A stretch of 64,000 nt of DNA, from NCBI RefSeq assembly GCF_003334765.1, contig NZ_QOWT01000013.1; one strand, written 5' to 3'. Source of the stretch: Escherichia coli. Its GTDB lineage: Bacteria > Pseudomonadota > Gammaproteobacteria > Enterobacterales > Enterobacteriaceae. The translations under genes were made by a program, and so were the position numbers. Shown in pieces: positions 13,323-14,541 of the stretch (its first letter is position 1; each line of letters starts with the position of its first letter). The notes under the pieces are model-generated. The model was given only the letters and a program-made list of their open reading frames with translations. It was not told the DNA's origin and did no database searches.

Positions 13323-14033
13323 TCAGGGCAGATTTTGCTCCTTCTTTGCACTCAACCCGCCGTAATCATTTATCGCCCGCCAGGCGACATGACACGGTGC
13401 GATTGCCTGACACCAGCTTGTCTGACGCTGGCTTTTAGGCGGCACAACTCCCACATTACTTAACGCTTTACCATTTACACTCACCTGAATCAGGTTAATG
13501 TAATAAGGCGTTGGGTTAGTGAGTTGTACACCCTGCGAATTCCGTGTCCAGCGTAATTGTTGATAAGCTTCCAGCGGGTCGCCCGGCAAACCTTCGGGTC
13601 GCCAGAACAGTTTAAATACCGAGCGCATCGCCACTTTTACGCTCTGATTTTCAACTTTGCCGGATGGCACGCTGGCAATGCTTAACTCAAATAGCGTTTC
13701 GCGATCCACAGGCAAGATGTCGCTTTCCGTTCTCAGCAAGCGCAACGTGCCTGTCGTACCGGGCTTCAGGAGAATAAGTGGCGGAGCGGCCAGTAATGGT
13801 GCTGGCACTGTCGACGCTTCCCCCCCGGCCCAACGCGTTGGGCGGTTGATTTTACTGTTAATAAGCCAGGATTCCTGACTGGTATTAGTCAGTAAAATAG
13901 ATATCGATTCTCTGTCTGCCGGAAAGATAAATCGCGTTCCGCCGACCACCACTCCTGCCTGCAATTCACCCGCCACCAGCAGCGATAAAACGGCGAAAAT
14001 CAAGAGCGCCAATCTGTTCCACGTATTAGTCAT
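13323..14033 (-). CDS. ycbF: Periplasmic pilus chaperone YcbF (PapD-like; second chaperone of the elf/ycb cluster)
   Basis: Translation carries a signal peptide and a PapD-like chaperone body. Start chosen at the second ATG (14033), giving 236 aa; the track ORF begins at 14060. Start codon is uncertain. Confidence 0.75.
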   Translation of the reverse strand: MTNTWNRLALLIFAVLSLLVAGELQAGVVVGGTRFIFPADRESISILLTNTSQESWLINSKINRPTRWAGGEASTVPAPLLAAPPLILLKPGTTGTLRLLRTESDILPVDRETLFELSIASVPSGKVENQSVKVAMRSVFKLFWRPEGLPGDPLEAYQQLRWTRNSQGVQLTNPTPYYINLIQVSVNGKALSNVGVVPPKSQRQTSWCQAIAPCHVAWRAINDYGGLSAKKEQNLP

Positions 14034-14541
14034 AATGAAGTACAAATGTCGCGCTGGCATTCACTTTACCCGACTGCACATCGCTATTGACAGGTCGCAA
14101 TTGCGCATAAAAAGTTAATGGCACCTTACCGCTATGTAGGCTGTAGTCTTTACTCGCCTGGTTAAGCGGAATCAATATCTTCGCATCATCCAGAATCGCA
14201 ATTGCCAGCCCGCTGGCTGCATCCGTACCACTTTCAATGGACAACATTTCGCTCTGCACTCCGTCGGGGGTTCCTGAAAAGGTGACGTCAACCGTGCTGA
14301 CATCTGTTCCGCAATCCTGCAAATTAATGATGAAAGATTTCTCCGGGCCATAATTCCCATGAGAAAAACGTGTCAGCGAGACATCGCCTAACTGCACATT
14401 GATTTGCTTGCTATCCTGTGCCAGCACGCATGTATTACGGCGAAACGATCCGCTAATGTTGACCGTGCCATCATGGGCAAATAGCTCACAGCCCCACGTT
14501 AATCCCAATAAGAACAGAATCCAGATTATCCGTTTCAACAT
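14026..14541 (-). CDS. ycbV: Fimbrial subunit-like protein YcbV
   Basis: Signal peptide followed by a pilin-like beta-rich domain ending ...ATFVLHYD. Start chosen at MLKRIIWILFLLG (171 aa); the track ORF is 16 codons longer and would overlap ycbU. Confidence 0.75.
   Translation of the reverse strand: MLKRIIWILFLLGLTWGCELFAHDGTVNISGSFRRNTCVLAQDSKQINVQLGDVSLTRFSHGNYGPEKSFIINLQDCGTDVSTVDVTFSGTPDGVQSEMLSIESGTDAASGLAIAILDDAKILIPLNQASKDYSLHSGKVPLTFYAQLRPVNSDVQSGKVNASATFVLHYD

What the first reader, a model, noticed from the sequence alone, without database searches (positions are those of the whole stretch)
14026..14060. Ambiguous start codons at the ycbV/ycbF junction
ycbF can start at 14060 or 14033 and ycbV at 14589 or 14541. 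The shorter choices give conventional signal peptides and an 8-bp ycbV/ycbF overlap; the longer ones would create 35-bp and 41-bp overlaps. Only a hand-picked choice is offered here.
Basis: seen in the sequence. Interest (0 to 1): 0.15.

Follow-up and report, generated by a model that had tools for sequence, protein, structure and literature searches.

The report
Start-codon choice at ycbV/ycbF junction
Two neighbouring E. coli fimbrial genes each have two possible start codons, and comparison with 12 related operons favours the shorter versions; this is routine annotation housekeeping, not a new biological feature.

Summary
The window is an E. coli K-12-type chromosome, reverse-complemented, carrying the elfADCG-ycbUVF chaperone-usher fimbrial operon.

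- **Candidate starts.** ycbF can start at ATG 14060 (245 aa) or ATG 14033 (236 aa). ycbV can start at ATG 14589 (187 aa) or ATG 14541 (171 aa).
- **Database disagreement.** The curated NC_000913.3 record uses both short starts. PGAP RefSeq records use the long ycbF.
- **Comparative evidence.** In all 13 orthologous loci, ycbF has an ATG placed in an 8-nt overlap (ATGNNTRR) with the ycbV stop. The upstream ATG is usable in only 6 of 13. It arises from the conserved Asn-Ala codons of YcbV, and the 27-nt extension shows no constraint in the ycbF frame. The distal ycbV ATG is usable in 7 of 13.
- **Protein evidence.** NCBI's own equivalog model (236 positions) begins at the proximal Met. Mature FimC aligns from the residue after the predicted cleavage site.
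- **Likely mechanism.** The proximal ycbF ATG has no Shine-Dalgarno sequence. Published in-vitro initiation profiling found no initiation there on an isolated RNA. This fits translational coupling to ycbV by termination-reinitiation.

Either start would give the same mature protein. This is already-known biology of low interest.

The parts
13323..14033 (-). ycbF coding sequence from the favoured proximal ATG (236 aa, PapD-like periplasmic fimbrial chaperone)
   Evidence: ORF and translation. Curated NC_000913.3 start. NF008483 equivalog scores 551 bits against a cut-off of 357 and covers residues 10-245 of the long form. Aligns to FimC and PapD structures.
14026..14033 (-). ATGACTAA: the ycbF start codon overlapping the ycbV stop codon (-8 overlap), the proposed termination-reinitiation site
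   Evidence: Sequence. The ATGNNTRR geometry and the TAT Tyr codon are conserved in 13 of 13 orthologous loci. There is no SD upstream (+0.4 kcal/mol). The -8 overlap class is described in PMC10666635.
14034..14060 (-). 27-nt optional 5' extension of ycbF (MPARHLYFI) beginning at the distal ATG 14060..14058; it lies inside the last 11 codons of ycbV
   Evidence: The distal ATG comes from the YcbV Asn-Ala codons (AAT GCC). It is usable in 6 of 13 orthologues. It is GTG in 1, ACG or GCG in 5, and followed by an in-frame TAA in 1. Peptide change per orthologue versus K-12 is 0-2 of 10 in the ycbV frame and 1-5 of 9 in the ycbF-long frame, over the first nine comparisons.
13956..14033 (-). Predicted YcbF signal peptide (MTNTWNRLALLIFAVLSLLVAGELQA, 26 aa; cleavage before GVVVGGTR)
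   Evidence: Heuristic n/h/c-region analysis. Residue 1 of mature FimC chains aligns with residue 36 of the long form, which is residue 27 of the short form.
14026..14541 (-). ycbV coding sequence from the proximal ATG (171 aa fimbrial subunit)
   Evidence: Curated and PGAP annotations agree. An INRI-seq peak at the annotated TIS 1003439 was seen in 5 of 5 replicates. Orthologues carry PF00419.
14536..14549 (-). ycbV ribosome-binding region: SD AAGGAG (14549..14544) followed by three consecutive in-frame candidates, GTG 14544, ATG 14541 and TTG 14538
   Evidence: Anti-SD duplex of -8.3 kcal/mol. The gap from the SD's last G is 2 nt to ATG and 5 nt to TTG (sequence). In L029, L030 and L031 the start is GTG directly before AAA CGx, which is the position of the K-12 TTG.
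14542..14589 (-). 48-nt optional 5' extension of ycbV from the distal ATG 14589, of which 41 nt lie inside the 3' end of ycbU
   Evidence: The ATG comes from the YcbU Asn-Ala codons (GGNATAV). The extension is unavailable in 6 of 13 orthologues, either because the codon is AAC or because the reading frame is closed by a stop. The nearest SD-like match is 14 nt away.
14549..15091 (-). ycbU coding sequence (180 aa fimbrial subunit); its stop TGA is 14551..14549

Best explanation
The region is the junction between two genes of the known, normally silent E. coli chaperone-usher fimbrial operon elfADCG-ycbUVF. The functional start of ycbF is the proximal ATG at 14033. It has no Shine-Dalgarno sequence and lies five nucleotides upstream of the ycbV stop codon (ATGACTAA). 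It is most likely used by ribosomes that have just terminated on ycbV, that is, by translational coupling through termination-reinitiation. The upstream ATG at 14060 is an accidental by-product of the conserved Asn-Ala codons in the C-terminal strand of YcbV. ycbV itself starts just after the ycbU stop, behind a strong AAGGAG Shine-Dalgarno sequence, at ATG 14541 or the adjacent TTG 14538. The ATG at 14589 is likewise a by-product of Asn-Ala codons in YcbU. Both proteins are exported, and their signal peptides are removed at the same site whichever start is used, so the choice does not change the mature proteins.

Shown here: the coordinates, the conservation pattern, the family membership, the absence of an SD, and the lack of stand-alone initiation in published in-vitro data. 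Inferred: the reinitiation mechanism itself.
For: - **Identity.** The 2-kb region is 100% identical to K-12 MG1655 records. NC_000913.3 annotates ycbV at 1003439-1003954 and ycbF at 1003947-1004657, an 8-nt overlap.
- **Conservation of the proximal ycbF start.** In 13 orthologous ycbUVF loci, reaching down to 48% YcbF identity, the proximal ATG and the ATGNNTRR overlap are present in 13 of 13. The Tyr codon that supplies the AT of that ATG is always TAT.
- **Loss of the distal ycbF ATG.** It is usable in only 6 of 13 loci. The Asn codon that creates it is AAC in 4 loci and is replaced by a Ser codon in 2. In L035 an in-frame TAA follows it.
- **Frame constraint.** Across the first ten loci, the 27-nt extension reads NASATFV(L/V)(H/R)YD* almost unchanged in the ycbV frame. 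In the ycbF-long frame it changes at up to 5 of 9 residues per orthologue.
- **Family model.** NF008483 (equivalog, 236 positions) matches residues 10-245 of the long form, profile positions 1-236.
- **Cleavage site.** Mature FimC residue 1 aligns to residue 36 of the long form.
- **Presequence lengths.** 26 and 22 aa for the short forms, 35 and 38 aa for the long forms, and 18-28 aa in orthologues.
- **Anti-SD pairing.** +0.4 kcal/mol at ATG 14033 and -8.3 kcal/mol at the ycbV proximal start.
- **INRI-seq (PMC9825163, Tables S2, S4, S6).** The ycbV annotated TIS gave 12-18 CPM in 5 of 5 replicates. The ycbF annotated TIS gave 0 in 5 of 5, although the transcript was present at 149.6 CPM. The operon context is deliberately broken in that assay.
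- **Literature on coupling.** The -8 overlap (ATGNNTGA) is the third most common arrangement. The window from -8 to +6 nt is taken as indicative of termination-reinitiation. Reinitiation was shown experimentally to be strongly distance-dependent (PMC10666635).
Against: - There is no in-vivo initiation or N-terminal data for these genes. Ribo-RET values are 0 for the elf genes listed around ycbF (elfC to ycbF).
- The INRI-seq construct begins only 3 native nucleotides (6 with the T7 GGG) upstream of the distal ATG, so it does not fairly test that codon.
- The distal ATG has a weak SD-like match (GGGU, -3.8 kcal/mol, spacing about 6).
- PGAP chose the distal ATG in all four PGAP records examined, and a 245-aa NCBI/UniRef cluster has 5262 member sequences.
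- Signal-peptide N-termini evolve fast anyway, so the lack of constraint on the extension is weaker evidence than it would be in a mature domain.
- A zero in INRI-seq can have other causes. About 30% of annotated TISs were not detected.
- The local RNA fold is no more stable than shuffled controls (z = 0.09), so there is no structural support for obligatory coupling.
Confidence: 0.8

Rival explanations
1. ycbF is translated from the distal ATG at 14060, as in PGAP RefSeq records. This gives a 245-aa precursor with a 35-nt overlap on ycbV and initiation independent of ycbV termination.
For: It is the longest ORF. It has a weak SD-like GGGU about 6 nt upstream (-3.8 kcal/mol), whereas the proximal ATG has none. 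PGAP uses it in every PGAP record checked, and the 245-aa cluster has 5262 members. The proximal ATG gave no signal in vitro. The ATG is retained in all E. coli loci examined.
Against: The codon is absent or unusable in 6 of 13 orthologues and is GTG in one more. The extension shows no constraint in its own frame. The SD-like GGG is simply the conserved Gly codon of YcbV. NCBI's own equivalog HMM starts at the proximal Met. A 35-aa presequence with a 16-aa n-region lies outside the orthologue range of 18-28 aa. No alternative TIS at -27 is listed in INRI-seq Table S3, although the construct barely includes that codon.
Confidence: 0.08
2. Both ATGs of ycbF (and possibly of ycbV) are used, giving two precursor isoforms that differ only in the signal-peptide n-region and mature to the same protein.
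For: Both codons are ATG, in frame and open in K-12. Neither has a strong SD. Nothing measured excludes minor use of the distal codon. Alternative in-frame TISs are common in E. coli data sets: 918 putative ones in INRI-seq.
Against: The distal codon is not conserved. No signal was seen at either site in the available data. There would be no functional consequence if cleavage is unchanged.
Confidence: 0.08
3. ycbF starts further downstream at TTG 14012 (229 aa, MALLIFAV...), as called in ENA-derived predictions.
For: A 229-aa cluster with 807 member sequences uses it (P0002). There is a weak GGA-type SD match at 4 nt (-3.3 kcal/mol).
Against: The presequence would have no positively charged n-region. 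The TTG is not present at that position in orthologues such as L006, L029-L031 and L033. TTG is a weak start codon. The conserved ATG lies 7 codons upstream.
Confidence: 0.02
4. ycbV initiates at TTG 14538 (170 aa, MKRIIW...) rather than at ATG 14541.
For: The SD AAGGAG ends 2 nt before the ATG but 5 nt before the TTG. In L029, L030 and L031 the start GTG sits exactly at the TTG position, directly before AAA CGx. In L006 the ATG position is GTG while the TTG is retained. INRI-seq calls peaks within 12-18 nt of the start, so it cannot separate codons 3 nt apart.
Against: ATG is intrinsically a much stronger start codon than TTG (my own knowledge). Curated and PGAP annotation both use the ATG. 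All E. coli loci examined keep the ATG. The two options differ by one residue in a cleaved presequence.
Confidence: 0.25

Closest known systems
Overlapping gene pairs with a -8 overlap (ATGNNTGA type), translationally coupled by termination-reinitiation (Huber et al. 2019 and 2023; PMC6728339, PMC10666635)
   Same: The genes are co-directional and in one operon. The downstream ATG lies 5 nt upstream of the upstream gene's stop. There is no SD. The geometry is conserved across orthologues. There was no stand-alone initiation in vitro.
   Different: Coupling has not been measured for ycbV/ycbF. The stop here is TAA (TAG or TGA in orthologues). The gene products are a pilin-like subunit and a chaperone, not demonstrated partners in a fixed-stoichiometry complex.
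PapD/FimC family periplasmic chaperones of chaperone-usher fimbrial operons (YcbF itself, b0944, NCBIfam NF008483)
   Same: YcbF has PF00345 and PF02753 domains, a full-length equivalog match, a Sec-type signal peptide, and a mature N-terminus GVVVGGTRFIF that aligns with FimC GVALGATRVIY.
   Different: Nothing differs. This is that gene. It is a second chaperone at the 3' end of an operon that already encodes ElfD.
Known disagreements over start sites between curated K-12 annotation and automated pipelines (estimated at 5-12% of prokaryotic genes in a study cited by PMC9825163)
   Same: The same ORF is given 245 aa (PGAP), 236 aa (NC_000913.3) and 229 aa (ENA-derived calls).
   Different: Here the alternatives lie in a cleaved presequence, so the mature product is unaffected.

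Membership tests
PapD-like fimbrial chaperone (YcbF equivalog, NF008483) | Full-length match to the equivalog HMM above the curated cut-off | tested here: met
   551 bits against a cut-off of 357. Residues 10-245 of the long form match profile positions 1-236 of 236.
PapD-like fimbrial chaperone (YcbF equivalog, NF008483) | PapD_N and PapD_C domains, and homology to solved chaperones | tested here: met
   PF00345 and PF02753 are precomputed for the K-12-type cluster and its orthologues. FimC E = 4e-32; PapD, Caf1M and SfaE also match.
PapD-like fimbrial chaperone (YcbF equivalog, NF008483) | N-terminal Sec signal peptide cleaved before the conserved mature N-terminus | tested here: inconclusive
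   A heuristic n/h/c analysis and the alignment to mature FimC residue 1 support cleavage after ELQA. No trained predictor or experimental N-terminus was available.
Chaperone-usher fimbrial subunit (YcbV) | Fimbrial (PF00419) domain with the conserved C-terminal strand | tested here: met
   PF00419 is found on the orthologous gene products. Hits to FimF, BcfF and FimI models are all below their equivalog cut-offs, so YcbV is a family member but not an equivalog of any of them. The C-terminus NASATFVLHYD is conserved.
Termination-reinitiation coupled gene pair | Co-directional genes with a stop/start distance between -8 and about +6 nt | tested here: met
   An overlap of -8 (ATGACTAA) in K-12 and in 13 of 13 orthologues. 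The criterion is taken from PMC10666635.
Termination-reinitiation coupled gene pair | The downstream start lacks efficient independent initiation | tested here: inconclusive
   There is no SD (+0.4 kcal/mol). INRI-seq gave 0 CPM in 5 of 5 replicates on the isolated RNA. However, about 30% of annotated TISs are undetected in that assay for a variety of reasons.
Termination-reinitiation coupled gene pair | Translation of the downstream gene depends on translation of the upstream gene up to its stop codon | not testable with these tools
   This needs two-reporter constructs with premature stops in ycbV.

The most novel reading that the evidence does not exclude
In K-12 both ycbF ATGs are used. 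The long precursor, with a 16-residue n-region containing the hydrophobic LYFI stretch, would then be targeted or processed differently from the short one. Start-site choice would thereby tune how much of this second chaperone reaches the periplasm relative to YcbV.
Probability: 0.04. Interest if true: 0.3.

Novelty: already known. Interest (0 to 1): 0.08.

Why it matters
The practical value is annotation hygiene.

- PGAP gives ycbF the 245-aa form in every PGAP record checked, and a 245-aa cluster from NCBI and UniRef holds 5262 sequences. Comparative evidence, and NCBI's own equivalog model, point to the 236-aa form that the curated K-12 record uses.
- The pair is a tidy natural example of a conserved, SD-less -8 overlap. 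It shows no stand-alone initiation in vitro, so it is a reasonable test case for termination-reinitiation.
- Both candidate ATGs can be removed by changes that are synonymous in ycbV, which makes the test simple.
- No new biology is implied. The mature proteins are the same under every start choice.

Tried and rejected
- **Local RNA structure around the proximal AUG.** The predicted hairpin partly covers the AUG, but it is no more stable than shuffled sequence (z = 0.09 for 96 nt; z = -0.76 for the INRI-seq construct). It gives no support for a dedicated structure.
- **Supplementary tables of the retapamulin preprint (10.1101/520783).** None are held. The Ribo-RET values came second-hand from the INRI-seq Table S2 and are 0 for the elf genes listed around ycbF (elfC to ycbF).
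- **Scan of genome contigs with YcbF.** It returned only one close orthologue (Escherichia sp. E1V33) plus distant paralogous chaperones. The remaining orthologues came from the protein search and the contig look-ups.
- **Codon bias at the Asn codon that creates the distal ATG.** Seven AAT against four AAC among Asn-bearing orthologues gives no sign of selection to keep the ATG.
- **A lipoprotein reading of YcbV (LTWGC).** This is my own reading against the lipobox consensus as I recall it. T at -3 and W at -2 do not fit that consensus. The Cys is absent from the L006 orthologue presequence.
- **First frame-by-frame substitution count.** One search used the wrong ycbV register. It was redone correctly.
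- **AUGUG/GUGUG dual-frame initiation (PMC9841429).** The ycbV start region reads GUGAUGUUG and does not contain that motif.

Full report
**What is there.**
The 2-kb stretch around the finding is 100% identical to E. coli K-12 MG1655 records, and the window is the reverse complement of the chromosome. All genes here are on the minus strand.

| Gene | ORF in window | Length |
|---|---|---|
| ycbU | 14549..15091 | 180 aa |
| ycbV (longest ORF) | 14026..14589 | 187 aa |
| ycbF (longest ORF) | 13323..14060 | 245 aa |

pyrD follows downstream. These genes form the 3' half of the elfADCG-ycbUVF chaperone-usher fimbrial operon.

- ycbF has in-frame ATGs at 14060 and 14033.
- ycbV has in-frame ATGs at 14589 and 14541.
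- The ycbV stop TAA is 14028..14026, so the ycbV/ycbF overlaps are 8 nt (ATGACTAA) or 35 nt.
- The ycbU stop TGA is 14551..14549, so the long ycbV overlaps ycbU by 41 nt and the short one starts 7 nt after the stop.

**Is it unusual?**
No. Among the 50 complete curated CDS in this window, 11 have an in-frame ATG upstream of the annotated start before the next stop. Nine of those lie within 16 codons.

**The ambiguity is real in databases.**

| Source | ycbV | ycbF | Overlap |
|---|---|---|---|
| Curated NC_000913.3 | 171 aa | 236 aa | 8 nt |
| PGAP RefSeq (four records checked, including a K-12 MG1655 assembly) | 171 aa | 245 aa | 35 nt |
| Third set of predictions (P0002, 807 members) | not applicable | 229 aa, from TTG 14012 | none |

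In one of the four PGAP records ycbF is marked as a frameshifted pseudogene.

**Comparative evidence for ycbF.**
I collected 12 further orthologous ycbUVF loci: Escherichia sp. E1V33, metagenomic Escherichia-like contigs, Pseudocitrobacter and others. Their YcbF identity to K-12 runs from 86% down to 48%.
- **Proximal ATG.** It is present in 13 of 13 loci, always as ATGNNTRR overlapping the ycbV stop. The Tyr codon that supplies its AT is TAT in 13 of 13, although neighbouring third positions vary.
- **Origin of the distal ATG.** It is generated by the Asn-Ala codons (AAT GCx) of the conserved YcbV C-terminus.
- **Usability of the distal ATG.** It is a usable ATG in 6 of 13 loci. It is GTG in one, ACG or GCG in five, and followed by an in-frame TAA in one.
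- **Frame constraint.** In the first ten loci the 27 nt read NASATFV(L/V)(H/R)YD* almost without change in the ycbV frame. The same nucleotides in the ycbF-long frame give MPARHLYFI, MPVPPLFSI, MPAPPLFCT, MRQRHLF*P and so on. Eight of the 15 variable columns are ycbV third positions.

The extension therefore evolves purely as ycbV coding sequence.

**Protein-level evidence for ycbF.**
- NCBIfam NF008483 is the equivalog model for this protein and is 236 positions long. It aligns to residues 10-245 of the long form (551 bits, cut-off 357).
- Residue 1 of mature FimC chains aligns to residue 36 of the long form. That places signal-peptide cleavage after ELQA.
- From the proximal Met the presequence is 26 aa with a 7-aa n-region. 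From the distal Met it is 35 aa with a 16-aa n-region.
- Orthologue presequences measured from the proximal Met are 18-28 aa.

**Comparative evidence for ycbV.**
- All 13 loci have a start codon (ATG or GTG) 7-10 nt after the ycbU stop. In K-12 it follows a strong SD.
- The distal ATG comes from the Asn-Ala codons of the conserved YcbU C-terminus GGNATAVLYFDLVYQ*.
- That extension is unavailable in 6 of 13 loci, either because the Asn codon is AAC or because the frame is closed by a stop.
- The K-12 SD AAGGAG (14549..14544) pairs with the anti-SD at -8.3 kcal/mol.

One refinement: the SD ends 2 nt before ATG 14541 and 5 nt before TTG 14538. In L029, L030 and L031 the start GTG occupies exactly the TTG position, directly before AAA CGx. 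TTG 14538 is therefore a serious third candidate. It differs from the ATG form by one residue of a cleaved presequence.

**Experimental data.**
INRI-seq (PMC9825163) applied retapamulin in a PURE translation system to synthetic RNAs spanning -30 to +153 of every K-12 CDS.
- **ycbV.** The annotated TIS gave 12-18 CPM in 5 of 5 replicates.
- **ycbF.** The annotated TIS gave 0 in 5 of 5 replicates, although the RNA was present at 149.6 CPM. No in-frame alternative at -27 is listed.
- **Limits for ycbF.** The ycbF construct begins GGG-TGA-ATG, so the distal ATG sits at the very 5' end and is not fairly tested.
- **Limits for ycbV.** The ycbV construct does not include 14589. The peak window of 12-18 nt cannot separate ATG 14541 from TTG 14538.
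- **In-vivo data.** Ribo-RET values quoted in the same table are 0 for the elf genes listed around ycbF (elfC to ycbF), as expected for a silent operon.
- **Operon context.** The authors note that their design deliberately breaks operon context.

**Mechanism.**
- The proximal ycbF ATG has no SD (+0.4 kcal/mol).
- It shows no stand-alone initiation in vitro.
- It sits in a -8 overlap that is invariant across orthologues.
- Published work reports that -8 (ATGNNTGA) is the third most common arrangement of co-directional pairs.
- That work takes distances from -8 to +6 nt as indicative of termination-reinitiation.
- It also found that reinitiation falls steeply with distance (PMC10666635).

The best-supported reading is that ribosomes finishing ycbV restart at ATG 14033. 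This step is inferred, not shown. A fold of the local RNA gave no structure beyond chance.

**Rivals.**
- **Distal-ATG start (the PGAP call).** Its support is that it is the longest ORF, has a weak GGGU SD-like match (-3.8 kcal/mol), and is conserved within E. coli. The GGG is the conserved Gly codon of YcbV, and the ATG is dispensable in relatives.
- **Dual use of both ATGs.** This cannot be excluded, but it would give the same mature protein.
- **TTG 14012.** It lacks a charged n-region and is not conserved.

**Verdict.**
The feature is an ordinary, already-annotated start-site ambiguity in known genes. Its only practical consequence is that the PGAP ycbF start is probably 27 nt too far upstream.

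Noticed in passing
window 16144..16173 (minus strand), elfC/elfG junction: The annotated elfG ATG (16173, 10-nt overlap with elfC) gave no INRI-seq signal. 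The in-frame GTG at +27 (16146) gave 32.7 CPM in 3 replicates and has a better SD (GGAG, -6.4 against -3.1 kcal/mol). A GTG or ATG occupies the homologous position in L006, L029, L030 and L031, and gene callers chose it in L030 and L031 (347-aa forms). The elfG start is probably set 9 codons too early in both NC_000913.3 and PGAP.
   Followed up: partly
window 20112..20121 (minus strand), elfA start: INRI-seq lists an in-frame alternative ATG 9 nt upstream of the annotated elfA start (75 CPM, 2 replicates). This matches the longest ORF 19573..20121. It is another ambiguous start in the same operon.
   Followed up: no
L004 1642..2378 (E. coli O157:H7 DEC4E); proteins P0007, P0009, P0012: ycbF is annotated as a frameshifted pseudogene in an O157:H7 genome. 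Several database variants show frameshift-like scrambled internal segments. This second chaperone gene appears to be decaying in some lineages.
   Followed up: no
window 13200..15200 compared with the E. coli genome collection: Only 4045 of 5426 complete E. coli genomes cover at least 80% of the ycbU-ycbF query. In the spread sample, the low-coverage hits, including an ST131 strain, match only the 113 nt next to pyrD. A sizeable minority of strains therefore appears to lack ycbUVF. One strain (H1) has an IS1 insertion in the region.
   Followed up: no
whole window; for example window 30978 (upstream of ompF), 1839 (fabA) and 16107 (elfG): The window is not identical to NC_000913.3. There are 16 single-base differences and a 1-nt deletion 19 nt upstream of the ompF start codon over the 64 kb. 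It comes from a close K-12 relative or derivative, not the reference record itself. None of the differences fall in 13200..15200.
   Followed up: partly
about window 13903 (genome 1004077), inside ycbF: INRI-seq lists an out-of-frame ATC alternative TIS at +131 in ycbF (9.8 CPM, 4 replicates). This is probably in-vitro noise on an RNA with no competing strong start.
   Followed up: no
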